A stretch of DNA of 14,152 nucleotides from a virus. Lineage: Duplodnaviria; Heunggongvirae; Uroviricota; Caudoviricetes. The translations under genes were made by a program, and so were the position numbers. Location: the IMG/VR virus record IMGVR_UViG_648276651_000001, positions 1-14,152 of that record. One strand, written 5' to 3'. Shown in pieces: positions 2,393 to 7,311 of the stretch. Below the pieces are notes generated by a model. It was not told where the DNA came from, ran no database searches, and saw only the letters and a list, made by a program, of their open reading frames with translations. Position 1 is the first letter of the stretch; each line of letters starts with the position of its first letter.

Positions 2393-2746
2393 ATGCAACT
2401 TACTCTCGATACGTTAAAAGAAACCGGTGCTTTTACCGGGCGTCCCGTGGAAAAAGAAATTAAGTGGAAAGGCCGTGACGGGAAAGAGCATATCGCAACC
2501 GTCTATGTGCGCCCGATGGGCTACCACACCACTAAAGCTGAACTGCTGGCGTATAACGGGAAATCGGACCCGATTGCTGAGCGCATTGCGGCGCATATTT
2601 GCGATCAGGACGGCGCCCCAGTGTTTACCGCGGCTGACATTCTTGGGACTGCTACCCCGGATCGTGGGGCGCTGGACGGACCGATTGTTATGGCCCTCCT
2701 GGCTGCAATTCATGATGTAAACGAACTGGGAAAGACTACGAGCTAA
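2393..2746 (+). CDS. Tail assembly chaperone (lambda gpG analogue)
   Basis: 117-aa ORF directly after the major tail gene. Contains the slippery heptamer G GGA AAG four codons before its stop, with an overlapping -1 frame continuing for about 100 codons. Confidence 0.7.
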   Translation: MQLTLDTLKETGAFTGRPVEKEIKWKGRDGKEHIATVYVRPMGYHTTKAELLAYNGKSDPIAERIAAHICDQDGAPVFTAADILGTATPDRGALDGPIVMALLAAIHDVNELGKTTS

Positions 2747-3042
2747 CCGGCGAGGATGAATTCTGGTGCGAACTGGTGATGAACGGCATCGGCGGCCGCA
2801 CCATTGCAGAGGCTCAGGAGCGGATGAGTCGCAGGGAATTTCTGGTTTGGCTCAAGTACCGTGAGAAGTACGGACCGCTCAATATCATGATGCGTACTGA
2901 GTGGGGGGCTTCGCTGGTGGCTTCTGTCCTGGCTAACATCAATAAGGCAAAAAACACGCCGCCGTTCAAGGTAAGTGACTTTGCACCGCACATCAACGAA
3001 GCGCCATTATCTCTGGAAGAAGCTATGAAAAGTTGGCATTGA
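2393..3042 (+). CDS. Tail assembly chaperone fusion (gpGT analogue) made by -1 frameshift at 2728-2734
   Basis: Joining the G-like frame up to the slippery site with the -1 frame gives about 216 aa. The extension (…DYELTGEDEFWCELVMNGIGG…SRREFLVWLKYREKYGPLNIMMRTEW…) has the aromatic-rich character of lambda T / DUF4035-type domains. The track ORF 2776-3042 starts at a GTG inside this extension and has no Shine-Dalgarno of its own. Confidence 0.65.
2728..2734 (+). promoter_or_regulatory. Programmed -1 ribosomal frameshift slippery site (G GGA AAG)
   Basis: In the G-like frame the codons are CTG GGA AAG (2726-2734), an X XXY YYZ heptamer identical to the lambda G/GT site. The -1 frame is open from 2716 (after TGA at 2713-2715) to the stop at 3040-3042. 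Confidence 0.75.
2913..2920 (+). other. Chi site (5'-GCTGGTGG-3')
   Basis: Exact octamer on the + strand. Confidence 0.6.
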
Positions 3043-3098
3043 TATCATTTATTTGGTTATATTCTCTCTGGGATGATTATATTGATACCGAGGGGATT

Positions 3099-3470
3099 AT
3101 GATAAAGAAAGCAGCTGTTGTTTTTACTGTAATGTTTTTAGGTGGCTGCGTTAGTGCGCCAGATAAGGCGGAGCTAAGCCGCGCCGATTATGGGAAGTTA
3201 CCTGATAATTATCAGGAAATAATTAAAAATAGTATGTCGGCGCGCCTTAAGGACCCTTATTCTGCACGATATGATTTCAATGAACCTTTCAAAGGCTGGT
3301 GCAAATCAGGATTTACAACTTATTACGGATGGTTAGTTCCTTTTACTCTTAACGCTAAAAACAGTTATGGCGGTTATGTTGGTAATAAGTCTTATCTGTA
3401 TCTTGTTAATCAAAATAGCGCCACTGACTTTACTGCATCCTTCCAAATCGGTGGGTGCGGTAAAAGTTAA
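3099..3470 (+). CDS. Predicted lipoprotein (moron between chaperone and tape measure genes)
   Basis: ATG at 3099 preceded by GAGGGG. N-terminus MIKKAAVVFTVMFLGGC is a signal peptide with lipobox L-G-G-C; Val at +2 suggests outer-membrane sorting in enterics. Two further Cys in the mature part. Visibly AT-rich relative to neighbours and followed by its own terminator. Family not recognised. Confidence 0.6.
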   Translation: MIKKAAVVFTVMFLGGCVSAPDKAELSRADYGKLPDNYQEIIKNSMSARLKDPYSARYDFNEPFKGWCKSGFTTYYGWLVPFTLNAKNSYGGYVGNKSYLYLVNQNSATDFTASFQIGGCGKS

Positions 3471-3492
3471 ATTAGCTAAATCATAAAATAAA

Positions 3493-3517
3493 CCTCGCTC
3501 CTGCGGGGTTTTTTATT
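3493..3517 (+). terminator. Intrinsic terminator after the lipoprotein gene
   Basis: Stem CCTCGC (3493-3498), loop TCCT, stem GCGGGG (3503-3508; one G-U pair), then TTTTTTATT. Confidence 0.55.
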
Positions 3518-3533
3518 GCCTGGAGAAAATTCA

Positions 3534-5969
3534 ATGGCTGGCAAGTCCCTTGGTACGTTAACAATCGACCTGATCGCAAAAGTGGGTGGATTTGTTCAGG
3601 GTATGGACAAAGCCGAAAGATCTTCTCAAAAGTGGCGTGACCAAGTAAAAAAGGATGCTAAAGAGGTTAGTTCTTCAATCATTGCTGTGGGTGCTGCGGC
3701 GGCTACAGCAGCTGTTGGCATTGGTGCTGCTGGGTTAGCCATAGTTAAAAATACTGCACAGCAGGTTACAGAAGCTGATCGCTGGGCAAAATCTCTTAAA
3801 ATGTCCACCCAGGATTTGTTATCCTGGCAATACGCTGCTGAACAAGCCGGTTTAACCGGTGACAACATAGCCGATATTTTCAAAGACATTAATGATAAGG
3901 TCGGTGATGCGGTCCTGAATAAATCAGGTGAGGCAGCTCAGGCGCTGGATACTTTGGGGCTTTCAGCTCAGAAGCTGGCTCAGCAATCCCCAGACAAGCA
4001 GCTGATGGCAATCAGTGAAGCATTACAGAAAATCCCCACTCAGGCCGGGAAAACAAATATTCTCGAAAGCCTGGGTAATGACCTGTCAAAAATGCTGCCG
4101 TTGTTCGACAACAACAACGAGAAGCTGAAACAGTTTATCCAGCTATCAAAAGATTTTGGTGTCGCACCACCGCAAGAAGATATTGATAACCTTGTTAAGG
4201 TTAATCAGTTCTTTCAGGATATAGAGACTAGCGCCCGCGGTCTTAAAATGGAAATTGCTTCGGGGCTGGCTAAGGTTGACCTTACACCATTGCAGGATGG
4301 GCTTGATGACATTCGTGACGTCTTCACCGATCCTGCTGTTCTTCAGGGGCTATCAGACCTGGTTGGTGAAGCCATAAGCCTTGCCGGGGTTGTGGGACGT
4401 ATTGCTGGTGGCTTGGGGGCCATTGCTACTTATACCCGCTCGCGTATAGGTGCTGTATCTGGTAATTATAATGCTGCTGATGAAAGTGATATTGCACAGA
4501 GAATTGAATTCCTTAACAAACGAGGGAATCAAAGTAAGGAGCAAAAAGACGAATTAGAATTTTTAACTAAACGTCTTCAATTTCTTCGCGCGATAAAATC
4601 AAGCATGACTCCGGAGCAGGTAGATAGAGGAGCGAAAGGGCTCTCGTCTCTACTTTCTGATCTTGGCATTGATACGTCTAAAGATAATGATTTTTCGTTG
4701 GGCAAAGGGGAGTCTAACCAGAATCAGCCAAAAACAAAACCAAAAAGCAATCCGACTGACAATGCTTTTAAAAATCGACTTCTTGACTTACAAAAGCAAG
4801 CTGCACTTATTGAAACAACAGGCAAAAAAACAGCTGAAGTTACAGAGCTTGAAAAAATAAACTTCGATATAAGCAGTGGTAATCTAAAAAAACTTTCCGA
4901 AGGTCAAAAAGACCAGTTGCGAACAGCTGCAAAGTTTCTTGATTCTAAGAAGGAAGAACTTCGTCTTAATCAGGAAAATGCGAAAGTTGCCGAGTACGTT
5001 TCAGGTCTTGAAAGGCAGAATAAATTAATTAAGCAGGGATATGATAGTGAATTTATTGGGCGTTATTCTGGAGATCGGGAACGTAGCCGGATGCAAGAAC
5101 GCAACAGTATTCAGCAGGAGTATGAAGGGAATCGCGAGGATTTATTAAAGCAATACCAATCTGGTGATATTTCTAAAAGTCTTTATGACGCTGAAACTGA
5201 AGCTTTGCAAGATGCACTGAATAAGAGGTTAGAAATTCAAAATGATTATTATAAGCAACAGGATGAATTACAGAATGATTACAGTGCTGGGTTAATTTCT
5301 GGTTTTGCTGCACAGGCTACTGCTGCGATGGATTTGTACTCCACAATGCAGCAAGTTGGGGCGCAAACATTCAGCAGCATGACCGACATGATTATAACTT
5401 GGGCAGAAACTGGAAAGTTGAACGCTCAAGATTTTGCAGCGACCTTTATACAGTCTGTAGGTGCGGCAATGCTGCAATATGCCGCTGCTCAGGTAGCAAT
5501 GGCGGCGCTTAATGCCTTCACTCAATGGATAGGTGTTCCTTACGTTGGCCCGGCGGTGGCTCCGGCTCAAGCAATTGCAGCAGCTGCAGCAGCTGGCGTA
5601 TTCATGACGGCGATCGGGTCGGCATTGCACGGCCAGGCTCACGACGGTATCGACTCTGTGCCTGAAACAGGAACTTGGCTCCTGCAGAAAGGTGAGCGCG
5701 TTACGACAGCTAAAACCAGCGCCAAACTTGACGCCACTCTGGATCGAGTTGCAAACCAGTCAACAGGCGGCGGCGCGATTTATTCACCCACAATCAATAT
5801 CCCCATAAATGGTAACCCTTCCGATGCGACAGTAGCCCTCGTGCGCAAAGCCGCTGCTGAAGGTGCTGAGCGCGGCTACCGAAAAGCTGTCAACTCGGTG
5901 ACTACTGGGCAAGGTGATCTACACAGGGCACTTATGGTGAAAACCAACTCGGGGAGGAAAATTCGCTGA
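3534..5969 (+). CDS. Tail tape measure protein
   Basis: 811-aa ORF starting at ATG 3534 (GGAG at 3522-3525), not the TTG at 3516. Ala/Gly-rich N-terminal segment, long coiled-coil middle and hydrophobic Ala-rich C-terminal part are typical of lambda-family tape measure proteins. Stop overlaps the next start (TGATG). Confidence 0.85.
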   Translation: MAGKSLGTLTIDLIAKVGGFVQGMDKAERSSQKWRDQVKKDAKEVSSSIIAVGAAAATAAVGIGAAGLAIVKNTAQQVTEADRWAKSLKMSTQDLLSWQYAAEQAGLTGDNIADIFKDINDKVGDAVLNKSGEAAQALDTLGLSAQKLAQQSPDKQLMAISEALQKIPTQAGKTNILESLGNDLSKMLPLFDNNNEKLKQFIQLSKDFGVAPPQEDIDNLVKVNQFFQDIETSARGLKMEIASGLAKVDLTPLQDGLDDIRDVFTDPAVLQGLSDLVGEAISLAGVVGRIAGGLGAIATYTRSRIGAVSGNYNAADESDIAQRIEFLNKRGNQSKEQKDELEFLTKRLQFLRAIKSSMTPEQVDRGAKGLSSLLSDLGIDTSKDNDFSLGKGESNQNQPKTKPKSNPTDNAFKNRLLDLQKQAALIETTGKKTAEVTELEKINFDISSGNLKKLSEGQKDQLRTAAKFLDSKKEELRLNQENAKVAEYVSGLERQNKLIKQGYDSEFIGRYSGDRERSRMQERNSIQQEYEGNREDLLKQYQSGDISKSLYDAETEALQDALNKRLEIQNDYYKQQDELQNDYSAGLISGFAAQATAAMDLYSTMQQVGAQTFSSMTDMIITWAETGKLNAQDFAATFIQSVGAAMLQYAAAQVAMAALNAFTQWIGVPYVGPAVAPAQAIAAAAAAGVFMTAIGSALHGQAHDGIDSVPETGTWLLQKGERVTTAKTSAKLDATLDRVANQSTGGGAIYSPTINIPINGNPSDATVALVRKAAAEGAERGYRKAVNSVTTGQGDLHRALMVKTNSGRKIR
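4404..4411 (+). other. Chi site (5'-GCTGGTGG-3')
   Basis: Exact octamer on the + strand. Confidence 0.6.
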
Positions 5970-6448
5970 TGGCTATCACCACGACACTTTACTACCCCGC
6001 TGATGTTCTCCCTGGGCCGTTGAAAGACGGCTTTGGAATGAAGCCGAAATCCCCGGTAAAAATCACCGAGCTCGTAACGGGGCGCAAAAGAATACGACGT
6101 GGCTATACCTCTGTTCCTACGGAAACAGATGTAGCCTGGATTTTTACTGACGCGCAGGCCCAGGCTTTTGAGGCATGGTACCGGGATGTTCTAAAAGACG
6201 GCAGCGCCTGGTTTAACATGCCGCTACTGACGCCAGTGGGCCAAAAAAATTACGTTTGCAGGTTTAACGATATTTATGAGGGGCCTACGCCTGAAGGAGG
6301 CTTGTACTGGCGGTATTCAGCATCCCTTGAGTTATGGGAACGGCCGCTGCCGGCGGTTGGCTGGGGAGAATATCCGGAGTGGATTGTGGGGAGTTCGTTA
6401 CTCGATATAGCTCTGAACAGGGAGTGGCCTAAGCATGACAGCGATTAA
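5969..6448 (+). CDS. Minor tail protein (first gene after tape measure; distal-tail/gpM-position analogue)
   Basis: 159-aa ORF coupled to the tape measure stop. Assigned by position only; no family motif recognised. Confidence 0.45.
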   Translation: MAITTTLYYPADVLPGPLKDGFGMKPKSPVKITELVTGRKRIRRGYTSVPTETDVAWIFTDAQAQAFEAWYRDVLKDGSAWFNMPLLTPVGQKNYVCRFNDIYEGPTPEGGLYWRYSASLELWERPLPAVGWGEYPEWIVGSSLLDIALNREWPKHDSD

Positions 6449-6917
6449 CCGCCTTTATGCGTCCTCCGGGTCGGAGGTCATCATTGGTACGTTGCAGATC
6501 GATATTGGCGGCCAGAAGCATTATCTGTGTGAGGGGTACGAGGACATTACGGCGGTTACCGAGAGGGGCGAAACCGTAACGTTTATTGCCTGTGCCATTG
6601 TCCTATCCCTTCCTGCCAGAAACGAAGACGGGACGCAGGACCTGAAGTTTATGCTGTGCAACGTCGACGGCGTTGTATCCACCGCTATACGCAAGGCCAT
6701 TGATGCCATGTCCACTGCCAGCATCACGTTCAGGAAATACATTTCCACTGACCTTACAGCGCCAGCGGAGCCGCCTTACGTCATGCCGGTTAAAGGAGGC
6801 TCCTGGACACCGCTGACTGTAAACGTCACTGCTGGTTTTAAAAATATGCTCGATTATGCCTGGCCACGTGACAGGTACACATTGACGTACTTCCAGGGTC
6901 TTCGTTACACACGATAG
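6435..6917 (+). CDS. Minor tail protein (possibly DUF1833-like)
   Basis: 160-aa ORF overlapping the previous gene by 14 nt; GGAG upstream. Synteny between the tape measure gene and an NlpC/P60-like gene matches tail-tip assembly genes. The DUF1833 guess comes from size and context only. Confidence 0.4.
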   Translation: MTAINRLYASSGSEVIIGTLQIDIGGQKHYLCEGYEDITAVTERGETVTFIACAIVLSLPARNEDGTQDLKFMLCNVDGVVSTAIRKAIDAMSTASITFRKYISTDLTAPAEPPYVMPVKGGSWTPLTVNVTAGFKNMLDYAWPRDRYTLTYFQGLRYTR

Positions 6918-6924
6918 GTATCCC

Positions 6925-7311
6925 ATGATCAACATTGATAAATACCTGACCGTCCGCTGGCAGATGGGCGGCCGCACTTTTCCTGTTCTCGACTGCTACG
7001 GCATTGTACATGAGGTCCGCCGGGACCTGGGGCTGCCTGAATGGCCCGCGTTTGAGGCTGTGATTAAAGAGCGTGGCAGCACTGAAATGGGGGAAGTCTG
7101 CGAGAGTTTTTCGCGTGACCTGACTCACTGCAAGCCGTGCAACGGTGCGGTTGCCGCCTGCTATATGGGAAATATGATCGGCCACCTTGGTGTTGTCGTC
7201 GAAATGGAGGGAGCGCTTTACGTTATTGAATGTAATCCCCGGCGCAACGTAACCATTCTTCCCCTGGCGCGTTTTGAACGCCAGTTTCTGAAAGTGGAGT
7301 ATTACCAGTGA
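6925..7311 (+). CDS. Tail-associated NlpC/P60 (C40) family peptidase-like protein (lambda gpK-domain analogue)
   Basis: 128-aa ORF with candidate catalytic Cys in LDCYGIV near the N-terminus and His in MIGHLGVVV, at the spacing expected for a minimal NlpC/P60 fold. GTGA overlap with the J-like gene. Confidence 0.5.
   Translation: MINIDKYLTVRWQMGGRTFPVLDCYGIVHEVRRDLGLPEWPAFEAVIKERGSTEMGEVCESFSRDLTHCKPCNGAVAACYMGNMIGHLGVVVEMEGALYVIECNPRRNVTILPLARFERQFLKVEYYQ

What the first reader, a model, noticed from the sequence alone, without database searches (positions are those of the whole stretch)
3043..3533. AT-rich lipoprotein moron inserted between the G/GT chaperone genes and the tape measure gene
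Seen in sequence: a stand-alone unit made of an AT-rich leader with promoter-like hexamers, a lipobox signal peptide (MIKKAAVVFTVMFLGGC), a roughly 107-residue mature domain with two Cys, and its own intrinsic terminator, all inside an otherwise tightly coupled tail operon. In lambda-like phages G/GT and the tape measure gene are normally adjacent. Established knowledge: phage-encoded outer-membrane lipoproteins such as T5 Llp and phi80/N15 Cor give superinfection exclusion by masking receptors, and morons are typically expressed from the prophage. Inference: this may be a lysogenic-conversion or exclusion factor acting at the envelope. I do not recognise its family.
Basis: partly seen in the sequence, partly recalled or inferred. 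Interest (0 to 1): 0.55.

Follow-up and report, generated by a model that had tools for sequence, protein, structure and literature searches.

The report
Swappable prophage lipoprotein gene before tape-measure
A Klebsiella prophage carries, in the classic add-on ("moron") slot just before its tail tape-measure gene, a swappable gene for an uncharacterised outer-membrane lipoprotein that probably blocks infection by related phages; the kind of element is well known, but this protein family has never been studied.

Summary
The gene is real. ORF 3099-3470 encodes a 123-aa lipoprotein precursor between the G/GT tail chaperone genes and the tape-measure (TMP) gene. It is AT-rich (37.6% GC against 51% for the window) and is followed by a strong terminator.

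It is a replaceable cassette. In 74 related Klebsiella phages the same slot, with sharp breakpoints at 3031-3051 and 3483-3490, always holds one of four envelope-protein genes: this lipoprotein, a 42%-identical paralogue, a secreted protein or a 2-TM protein.

Two details of the finding do not hold:
- No sigma-70 promoter is detectable in the leader.
- The terminator belongs to the slot, not to this gene. The same sequence follows cor in HK022-type phages.

HK97 gene 15, the original moron and an exclusion gene, sits in the same slot. ES18 gp20, annotated "possible moron", is a homologue.

The family is large (about 10,000 clusters at 50% identity), has no name, no Pfam entry and no solved relative. 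It is unrelated to Cor, Llp or gp15. It moves between moron slots: beside TMP genes, between K and I, and directly after CI repressor genes.

Superinfection exclusion at the envelope is the best guess and is untested. In this phage group the cargo type is co-inherited with TMP residues 491-678. A second phage group does not show that link.

The parts
2393..2746 (+). Tail assembly chaperone G. Left backbone of the slot.
   Evidence: Pfam Phage_TAC_13, E 9.1e-31. 97-100% identical in most phages that carry other cargo.
2728..2734 (+). GGGAAAG slippery heptamer for the G/GT -1 frameshift.
   Evidence: Read from the sequence. The zero frame reads CTG GGA AAG. The -1 frame is open from 2716 to 3042.
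2776..3042 (+). T part of the GT chaperone. Its stop codon, 3040-3042, is the left edge of the slot.
   Evidence: Pfam Phage_tail_T, E 1.4e-8. Homology to phages with other cargo ends at 3030, 3036 or 3051.
3043..3098 (+). AT-rich leader specific to the cassette, with Shine-Dalgarno GAGGGG at 3090-3095. No convincing promoter.
   Evidence: Sequence. The promoter scan finds no + strand site here. The leaders of the four cargo types are unrelated.
3099..3470 (+). Lipoprotein gene, 123 codons plus stop. Signal peptide 3099-3146, lipid-modified Cys17 at 3147-3149, Val at +2 (no inner-membrane retention signal), C68 at 3300-3302, C120 at 3456-3458.
   Evidence: Translation. phrog_2320, E 6e-32. Family alignment with invariant LKDPxS and NAKNSYGGYxG motifs and Cys17 conserved in at least 90% of members. 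AF2 model pLDDT 89.4.
3031..3489 (+). Exchangeable cassette, given at its widest limits.
   Evidence: blastn breakpoints against phages with other cargo: L064 3051|3490, L003 3030|3484, L002 3036|3483. GC 0.376.
3490..3518 (+). Intrinsic terminator: 9-bp stem, 4-nt loop, T-run. It belongs to the slot, not to the cargo.
   Evidence: Scan. Fold -13.2 kcal/mol, z -4.19. Conserved before the TMP gene in phages with other cargo and in Serratia, Tatumella, ES18 and P. helleri phages. The same sequence follows cor in HK633.
3522..3536 (+). GGAG ribosome-binding site and ATG of the TMP gene, contiguous with the conserved terminator element.
   Evidence: Sequence. Conserved junction ...TTTTTTATTGCCTGGAGAAAA..ATGGC.
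3534..5969 (+). Tape-measure protein, 811 aa.
   Evidence: Pfam Tape_meas_lam_C at residues 582-654.
5004..5567 (+). TMP residues 491-678, the segment co-inherited with the cargo type in this phage group.
   Evidence: All 44 fixed differences between A- and B-linked TMPs fall here. Four-gamete sites lie on both sides. Each of the four cargo types has its own haplotype here.

Best explanation
This is a moron cassette in the canonical moron slot of lambda-like tail operons, between GT and the TMP gene.

Its product is exported by Sec, lipid-modified at Cys17, and sent by Lol to the inner leaflet of the outer membrane, because residue +2 is Val, not Asp. A compact alpha+beta domain of about 100 residues then sits on a tether of about 5 residues facing the periplasm.

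The gene is transcribed at least with the late tail operon, since no terminator lies upstream of it. It may also be expressed in the lysogen.

The most likely role is superinfection exclusion, or protection of progeny: the protein stops incoming siphophages at the envelope. Of the two possible routes, I favour interference after adsorption, when the tail tip opens and the tape-measure protein enters the periplasm (about 0.3). Masking of the outer-membrane receptor from the periplasmic side is less likely (about 0.2).

Shown: the gene, the lipobox, the cassette exchange, its mobility between slots, and its identity of position with HK97 gene 15.
Inferred: lipidation, outer-membrane location, time of expression, and the exclusion function and its target.
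For: The cassette is exchangeable.
- Breakpoints against phages with other cargo are sharp.
- 74 of 74 related phages carry one of four unrelated cargo genes, and every one encodes an envelope-targeted protein: two lipoproteins, one secreted protein and one 2-TM protein.
- The cassette is low in GC.

The gene is mobile.
- Of 22 clusters at 90% identity, 13 lie just before a TMP gene, 3 just after one, 3 between K and I, 2 directly after and co-directional with a CI-type repressor (HTH_3 + Peptidase_S24), and 1 in an early region.
- One 70%-identity cluster holds both post-CI and pre-TMP copies.
- The post-CI position is where prophage-expressed exclusion genes typically sit (own knowledge: lambda rexAB).

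There are precedents in the same position.
- HK97 gene 15 lies between the chaperone and TMP genes with a terminator flush to the TMP start. It excludes HK97 and HK75 at DNA entry, depending on the phage's tail region.
- ES18 gp20 is a homologue annotated 'possible moron' before the TMP gene.
- Lipoproteins encoded in the structural clusters of mEpimmI phages exclude phages experimentally.

The cargo is linked to the TMP in this phage group.
- Cargo type is in complete association with TMP residues about 491-678.
- Flanking TMP parts and the upstream genes are shuffled relative to cargo type.

The +2 residues in the family are V, A, M, S or T, and never D.
Against: - There is no functional data for any member. 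All are named 'hypothetical'.
- There is no PADLOC hit.
- No promoter is detectable in the leader, so expression in the lysogen is unproven here.
- In a second phage group, 99-100% identical lipoproteins sit next to TMPs that differ strongly along their whole length: 11-76% per block, L062 against L051. Copies after CI are not next to any TMP gene. So a general matching of lipoprotein allele to TMP allele is not supported, and the linkage in the Klebsiella group may simply reflect inheritance as one module.
- Eleven residues are invariant across hosts from Klebsiella to Parvibaculum. That fits a conserved host ligand better than a fast-evolving phage target.
- More distant members in Bradyrhizobium, Haemophilus and Planctomycetota show no recognisable phage neighbours.
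Confidence: 0.45

Rival explanations
1. Receptor masking of the Llp/Cor type. The outer-membrane lipoprotein binds the periplasmic face of the phage's outer-membrane receptor and locks it in a form that does not support adsorption or triggering. This protects lysogens, and it protects progeny from being inactivated on cell debris.
For: - It has the same general make-up as T5 Llp and Cor: a small outer-membrane lipoprotein encoded among tail genes.
- The terminator and ribosome-binding junction after this gene is the same sequence as the one after cor in HK633/HK022-type phages.
- The tether to the membrane is short.
Against: - There is no homology to Cor (E 0.16) or to Llp beyond the signal peptide.
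- Llp and Cor lie next to receptor-binding genes. This family lies next to TMP or CI genes.
- Within the Klebsiella group the A and B alleles are shuffled relative to the first ~720 residues of J, the part the fetched loci cover. Its distal end was not compared.
- The family has invariant motifs across hosts whose receptors must differ.
Confidence: 0.2
2. Lysogenic conversion unrelated to phages. The lipoprotein changes an envelope property of the host, such as serum or detergent resistance, peptidoglycan turnover or inhibition of an enzyme, as lambda Bor does.
For: - The invariant polar motifs LKDPxS and NAKNSYGGYxG across many phyla suggest a conserved host ligand.
- The weak fold resemblance is to cystatin, PepSY, IseA and colicin M immunity proteins, that is, to inhibitor-type folds.
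- One member is fused to a peptidoglycan-binding domain, PF01471.
- Another probable conversion gene, Wzy-like, lies at the end of the window.
Against: - The strong preference for tail-operon slots, and the alternation with other small envelope proteins in one slot, is the pattern of the HK97 gene 15 slot, a proven exclusion gene.
Confidence: 0.17
3. Helper in the phage's own lytic cycle. The gene is made only late, with the tail genes, and acts on the envelope of the infected cell, for example by affecting lysis or release. It gives no benefit to lysogens.
For: - No promoter is detected and no terminator lies upstream, so late co-transcription is the only expression the sequence supports.
- The slot is occupied in all 74 phages of the group.
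Against: - The four alternative cargo proteins are unrelated, so no single conserved lytic function is being provided.
- Relatives sit behind CI repressor genes, in the part of the genome expressed in lysogens.
- A terminator directly after the gene makes sense mainly for a unit that is transcribed when the tail genes are silent.
Confidence: 0.08
4. Ordinary structural or assembly component of the tail.
For: Its position inside the tail operon, next to the TMP gene, in several phage groups.
Against: - A Sec/lipobox signal would remove it from the cytoplasm, where tails assemble.
- It is replaced by unrelated genes in phages whose TTP, G and T genes are 99-100% identical and whose J is 99% identical in some.
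- It also occurs after CI genes, far from the tail genes.
Confidence: 0.02

Closest known systems
HK97 gene 15 moron (gp15, YebO-like inner-membrane superinfection exclusion protein)
   Same: - Exactly the same slot: after the G/GT chaperone genes and before the TMP gene.
- A short leader, and an intrinsic terminator flush with the TMP ribosome-binding site.
- An envelope-targeted small protein.
- According to the paper, gp15 is expressed from the prophage and blocks genome entry in a way that depends on the incoming phage's tail region.
   Different: - No sequence similarity (no alignment with E <= 100).
- gp15 is a 62-aa inner-membrane protein without a lipobox. This is a 123-aa lipoprotein precursor predicted to go to the outer membrane.
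Salmonella phage ES18 gp20
   Same: - A family member: 34% identity, tblastn E 5e-10, with the same LKDPxS and NAKNSYGGY motifs.
- It lies directly before the TMP gene and is followed by an almost identical terminator and ribosome-binding junction.
- Its authors annotated it 'possible moron; function unknown'.
   Different: - 151 aa, with a longer linker after the lipobox.
- ES18 has a different tail tube, chaperone and TMP.
- Its function is equally unknown.
Cor (phi80/N15/HK022-type) and T5 Llp receptor-inactivating lipoproteins
   Same: - Small phage-encoded lipoproteins among tail genes.
- The terminator and ribosome-binding element after cor in HK633 matches the one here almost base for base.
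   Different: - Not homologous.
- Cor and Llp are 77 aa as precursors and sit next to receptor-binding genes.
- This family sits next to TMP or CI genes and has a larger alpha+beta domain.
Ltp of Streptococcus thermophilus phage TP-J34
   Same: A prophage-encoded lipoprotein that excludes phages at DNA injection, with the tape-measure protein as its target (own knowledge; the paper was listed but not read).
   Different: - Gram-positive host, and encoded in the lysogeny module.
- No sequence comparison was made here.
- From my own knowledge Ltp is built of helical repeats, unlike the alpha+beta model obtained here.
Lpp exclusion lipoproteins of mEpimmI coliphages
   Same: Lipoprotein genes inside the structural gene cluster, in several sequence types, shown experimentally to exclude phages of their own group.
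   Different: Homology was not tested, because their sequences were not at hand. tblastn of this protein against 50,697 phage records returned only Klebsiella, ES18 and Medea1 records.

Membership tests
Moron (sense of Juhala/Hendrix) | An extra gene lying between two genes that are adjacent in related phages. | tested here: met
   The segment 3031/3051-3483/3489 is replaced as a block in phages with near-identical flanks. G/GT and H are adjacent in lambda (own knowledge). However, none of the 74 relatives has an empty slot.
Moron (sense of Juhala/Hendrix) | Base composition different from the neighbouring genes. | tested here: met
   GC 0.376 for the cassette against 0.534 for G+T and 0.547 for 5969-13171.
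Moron (sense of Juhala/Hendrix) | Its own promoter. | tested here: inconclusive
   The scan finds no + strand sigma-70 site in 3043-3098. There are only weak hexamers with 19-nt spacing. The type-B cassette has a better candidate, TTTAAA-16-TATCAT (read by eye).
Moron (sense of Juhala/Hendrix) | Its own terminator. | tested here: met
   A strong hairpin and T-run at 3490-3518. It is shared by all cargo types, so it is a property of the slot.
Moron (sense of Juhala/Hendrix) | Expressed from the repressed prophage. | not testable with these tools
   This needs RNA-seq or 5'-RACE on a lysogen. Relatives directly behind CI genes are indirect support.
Bacterial lipoprotein (Lgt/LspA/Lnt substrate) | Signal peptide with a positive n-region, a hydrophobic core and a lipobox ending in Cys. 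| tested here: met
   MIKK-AAVVFTVMF-LGGC17. The Cys is conserved in at least 90% of 56 family members.
Bacterial lipoprotein (Lgt/LspA/Lnt substrate) | Actual acylation and cleavage. | not testable with these tools
   This needs palmitate labelling or globomycin sensitivity, and a C17A mutant.
Outer-membrane (Lol-sorted) lipoprotein of Enterobacteria | No Asp at position +2. | tested here: met
   +2 is Val. Across 95 family copies the +2 residue is V, A, M, S, T, P, N or K, and never D.
Cor family | Sequence homology to Cor. | tested here: not met
   BLASTP against HK633 Cor gives E 0.16 over 28 residues.
T5 Llp | Sequence homology of the mature domain. | tested here: not met
   hhalign of the family profile against Llp aligns only 18 columns of the signal peptide, probability 57%.
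HK97 gp15 / YebO family | Sequence homology. | tested here: not met
   No alignment with E <= 100.
HK97 gp15 / YebO family | Genomic slot between GT and TMP, with a terminator before the TMP gene. | tested here: met
   Searches compared.
Lambda Bor (Pfam Lambda_Bor) | A match to the Pfam model. | tested here: not met
   A Pfam scan at E <= 1 returned only a chance-level GBD_ELAPOR1 match. None of the 56 family members matched a lipoprotein family apart from one weak LPAM_1 hit.
PHROG 2320 (unknown function) | A match to the profile. | tested here: met
   E 6.4e-32 over residues 1-112.
Known anti-phage defence systems (PADLOC-DB 2.0) | A match to any model. | tested here: not met
   No hit for this protein, for the B allele, for the two other cargo proteins or for ES18 gp20.

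The most novel reading that the evidence does not exclude
The slot before the TMP gene, together with TMP residues about 491-678, forms a matched 'entry-specificity' pair. Each of at least four unrelated envelope proteins (two lipoprotein alleles, a secreted protein and a 2-TM protein) would recognise, or spare, one variant of the TMP segment that crosses the periplasm during DNA ejection. Phages would then carry an exchangeable key-and-lock module for exclusion at the injection step, comparable to colicin/immunity pairs.
Probability: 0.15. Interest if true: 0.75.

Novelty: new member of a known kind. Interest (0 to 1): 0.42.

Why it matters
Prophages of this kind are common in Klebsiella pneumoniae. 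The 90%-identity cluster of this protein alone has 441 member sequences.

If the slot cargo decides which temperate or therapeutic siphophages can enter a lysogen, it is a cheap and predictable marker of phage resistance.

The family is very large and has no name, no Pfam model and no solved relative. One experiment on one member would therefore annotate thousands of genes.

The co-inheritance of cargo type with one TMP segment, if it is functional, would point to the part of the tape-measure protein that is exposed and vulnerable during genome injection. That step is still poorly understood in Gram-negative siphophages.

Tried and rejected
**Searches for a name or a fold**
- Pfam, NCBIfam and PADLOC gave no family.
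- A profile search of PDB sequences gave nothing below E 0.1.
- Foldseek against the PDB gave no E below 0.1.
- Foldseek against BFVD found only one unnamed family member.
- The afdb50 library was not available.
- I therefore reject any assignment based on fold.

**Direct homology tests.** Cor, Llp and gp15 were all negative.

**Other searches**
- Rfam found nothing in the window.
- The gene and a relative have no DNA match in 5,426 complete E. coli genomes.
- The literature turned up no paper on this family.
- The Tab and Tai tail-assembly blockers were considered and rejected, because Tab acts on tail assembly inside the infected cell and Tai escape mutations map to tail proteins, whereas this protein is exported.

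**Promoter.** The scan was negative, and hand inspection gave only hexamer pairs with poor spacing.

**Matching between lipoprotein allele and TMP allele.** I tested whether this is general. A second phage group contradicts it, so I keep it only as a low-probability reading.

**J-allele linkage.** The A and B alleles occur with both J types, so I did not pursue a link to J; only the first ~720 residues of J were covered.

Full report
**What is in the sequence**

ORF 3099-3470 on the + strand encodes 123 residues that begin MIKKAAVVFTVMFLGGC. This is a standard lipoprotein signal: a positive n-region, a hydrophobic core and a lipobox ending in Cys17. The mature part has 107 residues and two further cysteines, C68 and C120. 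A good Shine-Dalgarno sequence (GAGGGG, 3090-3095) precedes the start codon.

The gene lies 56 nt after the stop of the T frame and 63 nt before the ATG of the tape-measure (TMP) gene at 3534. Several of the downstream tail genes overlap or abut each other.

- G is Phage_TAC_13 (E 9e-31), T is Phage_tail_T, and the tube protein is Phage_TTP_11.
- The lambda-type slippery heptamer GGGAAAG lies at 2728-2734, and the -1 frame is open through to 3042.
- The 811-aa product of 3534-5969 carries Tape_meas_lam_C.

The cassette is AT-rich: 0.376 GC against 0.534 for G+T and 0.512 for the whole window. A hairpin at 3490-3511 followed by a T-run folds at -13.2 kcal/mol with z = -4.2.

The one element I could not confirm is the promoter. 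The scan reports no + strand sigma-70-like site in the leader. By eye I find only hexamer pairs with poor spacing.

**It is a swappable cassette, and the terminator belongs to the slot**

Klebsiella phages KPP5665-2 and KpF5 carry the same gene at 98-99% DNA identity. Other phages with near-identical G and T genes lose similarity exactly at 3030-3051 and regain it at 3483-3490.

I scanned IMG/VR for the conserved end of the T gene and read the slot in 74 genomes. None was empty. Four cargo types were found:

| Cargo type | Protein | Number of genomes |
|---|---|---|
| X3 | 155-aa protein with two membrane helices | 26 |
| A | this lipoprotein (123 aa) | 23 |
| B | 130-aa lipoprotein, 42% identical to A | 17 |
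| X2 | 125-aa secreted protein | 8 |

All four are envelope proteins.

The terminator and the ribosome-binding site of the TMP gene are shared by all four cargo types. They are also conserved almost base for base before the TMP gene in Serratia, Tatumella, Salmonella ES18 and Pseudomonas helleri phages. The same 41 bp, including the GGAG and the ATG of the next gene, follows the cor gene in HK633/HK022-type phages. So 'its own terminator' is true physically, but the element is a common junction of such add-on genes.

**The family**

The protein has no Pfam, NCBIfam or PADLOC match. It belongs to phrog_2320, which has no known function.

A first search gave 92 homologues, all named 'hypothetical'. 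A profile search gave 10,338 cluster representatives at E <= 1e-3 and 2,952 at E <= 1e-10.

Members have invariant LKDPxS and NAKNSYGGYxG motifs and a conserved lipobox Cys. They occur in Gamma-, Beta- and Alphaproteobacteria, Campylobacterales, Planctomycetota, Bacteroidales and other groups. They were not found by DNA search in 5,426 E. coli genomes.

The AlphaFold model is confident (pLDDT 89.4). It shows two or three short helices packed on a six-stranded antiparallel sheet. It has no significant structural neighbour:
- Foldseek E values are above 0.1.
- BFVD contains nothing annotated.

The residue after the lipid-modified Cys is Val, and it is never Asp in 95 copies. The outer membrane is therefore the expected destination. 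The tether is short, because the first helix starts about five residues after Cys17.

**Where the family sits**

I examined about 170 loci.

- **Before a TMP gene.** The gene lies immediately before a TMP gene in phages with three different TMP types (Tape_meas_lam_C; TMP_2/TMP_4; TMP_3/HK97_TLTM) and with different tube and chaperone genes.
- **After a TMP gene.** In some phages it lies immediately after the TMP gene.
- **Between K and I.** Seen.
- **After a CI repressor gene.** It lies directly downstream of, and on the same strand as, a CI-type repressor gene (HTH_3 + Peptidase_S24) in several Pseudomonas, Ralstonia and Neptunomonas prophages.
- **Early regions.** It also occurs in the early regions of small integrase elements.

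Of 22 clusters at 90% identity, 13 are pre-TMP, 3 post-TMP, 3 between K and I, 2 post-CI and 1 in an early region. One cluster at 70% identity holds both post-CI and pre-TMP copies, so the gene moves between slots.

These are the classic moron slots. HK97 gene 15, the element for which the word moron was first used, lies between the chaperone and TMP genes with a terminator flush to the TMP start. HK97 has a second moron between K and I. ES18 gp20, a homologue, was annotated 'possible moron; function unknown' by its authors.

**What it most likely does**

- A structural role is excluded for practical purposes. The protein is exported, and relatives with the same tail genes do without it.
- The position behind CI genes in relatives argues for expression in lysogens.
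- The lack of any terminator upstream argues that here it is at least co-transcribed with the late tail genes.
- HK97 gp15, in the same slot, blocks genome entry in a way that depends on the tail region of the incoming phage.
- Lipoproteins encoded in the structural clusters of mEpimmI phages exclude phages experimentally.

I therefore take superinfection exclusion at the envelope as the best explanation (0.45). I lean towards a block after adsorption rather than receptor masking.

**A test of the link to the tape-measure protein**

In the Klebsiella group I compared 40 distinct TMP sequences, linked either to the A or to the B lipoprotein. All 44 fixed differences between the two sets fall in TMP residues 491-678. 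Residues 30-442 and 699-811 contain many sites where all four allele combinations occur.

With all four cargo types (51 full TMP genes), each type has its own haplotype at residues about 595-680. The last 100 residues are fully shuffled relative to cargo type, and the upstream TTP, G and T genes show little association with it. The A and B alleles also occur with both J types. This fits a functional pairing of the cargo with the TMP segment that contains Tape_meas_lam_C.

It can also be explained by simple inheritance of a module. A second phage group speaks against a general rule. There, lipoproteins that are 99-100% identical sit beside TMPs that differ along their whole length. The post-CI copies have no adjacent TMP gene at all. 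In addition, the invariant motifs across very different hosts fit a conserved host ligand. I therefore keep the matched-pair idea only as the most novel reading that is not excluded (0.15).

**Comparison with what is known, and verdict**

By position and architecture this works like the HK97 gene 15 moron. By protein type it resembles Cor and Llp. It is a member of none of them: Cor gives E 0.16, Llp aligns only over the signal peptide, and gp15 gives no alignment.

The kind of element is well known. The protein family is large and uncharacterised. My verdict on novelty is 'new member of a known kind', with moderate interest.

Noticed in passing
window 3490-3537; L187 (HK633) 2500-2545; L098 (ES18) ~7453-7500; L017 ~6430-6475: A roughly 45-nt element is conserved almost base for base at the 3' end of unrelated add-on genes. 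It consists of a terminator hairpin, a T-run, GCCTGGAGAAAA and the ATG of the next structural gene. It occurs before TMP genes in Klebsiella, Serratia, Tatumella, Salmonella and Pseudomonas phages, and after cor (before the side tail fibre gene) in HK022-type phages. It may be a portable junction that ends the add-on transcript and restarts translation of the downstream late gene, or a recombination joint for cargo exchange.
   Followed up: partly
window 5004-5567 (TMP residues 491-678): This TMP segment is hypervariable. In this phage group it is in complete association with the type of cargo gene in the slot 1.5 kb upstream, while the sequence between them and beyond it is shuffled. The TMP stretch 4400-5300, which overlaps the start of this segment, is AT-rich (0.355-0.415 GC), like the cassette.
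   Followed up: yes
window 13253-14074 (- strand): A 273-aa ORF on the opposite strand at the end of the tail region has weak matches to O-antigen ligase/polymerase families (Wzy_C E 1.5e-6, O-ag_pol_Wzy E 2.2e-5, both below Pfam's cut-offs). It may be a second envelope-modifying conversion gene. A hairpin-like sequence (ggatggtcgttatagatggccatcc) followed by a T-run lies at about 13210-13245, just downstream of its stop codon.
   Followed up: partly
window 10452-12401 and 12404-13171 (+ strand): Two ORFs after J, of 649 aa and 255 aa, have no Pfam match. By position they are probably a side fibre or depolymerase and its partner.
   Followed up: no
L002 3709-4086; L003 4216-4683: The alternative cargo genes of the same slot are also uncharacterised. 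One is a 125-aa secreted protein, mis-annotated 'obscurin' in phage vB_EcoS-733R5. The other is a 155-aa protein with two membrane helices (phrog_8032), which was the commonest cargo (26 of 74).
   Followed up: partly
L047 5556-5951: In one IMG/VR phage a 131-aa ORF with similarity to the CI-type repressor references lies directly upstream of the lipoprotein gene, inside the tail operon and before a 1117-aa TMP gene. This could be a cassette that carries its own regulator.
   Followed up: no
P0093 (464 aa); P0088 (184 aa): Some family members are multi-domain. One protein has three tandem copies of the domain. Another has a fused peptidoglycan-binding domain (PF01471).
   Followed up: no
L099 (Pseudomonas phage Medea1) 3057-6375: In Medea1 the lipoprotein homologue is the last gene of a block inserted between tail genes K and I. 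The block also holds an HTH regulator, an Arc-like protein and a Rha antirepressor, so it looks like an immunity-like module inside the tail operon.
   Followed up: no
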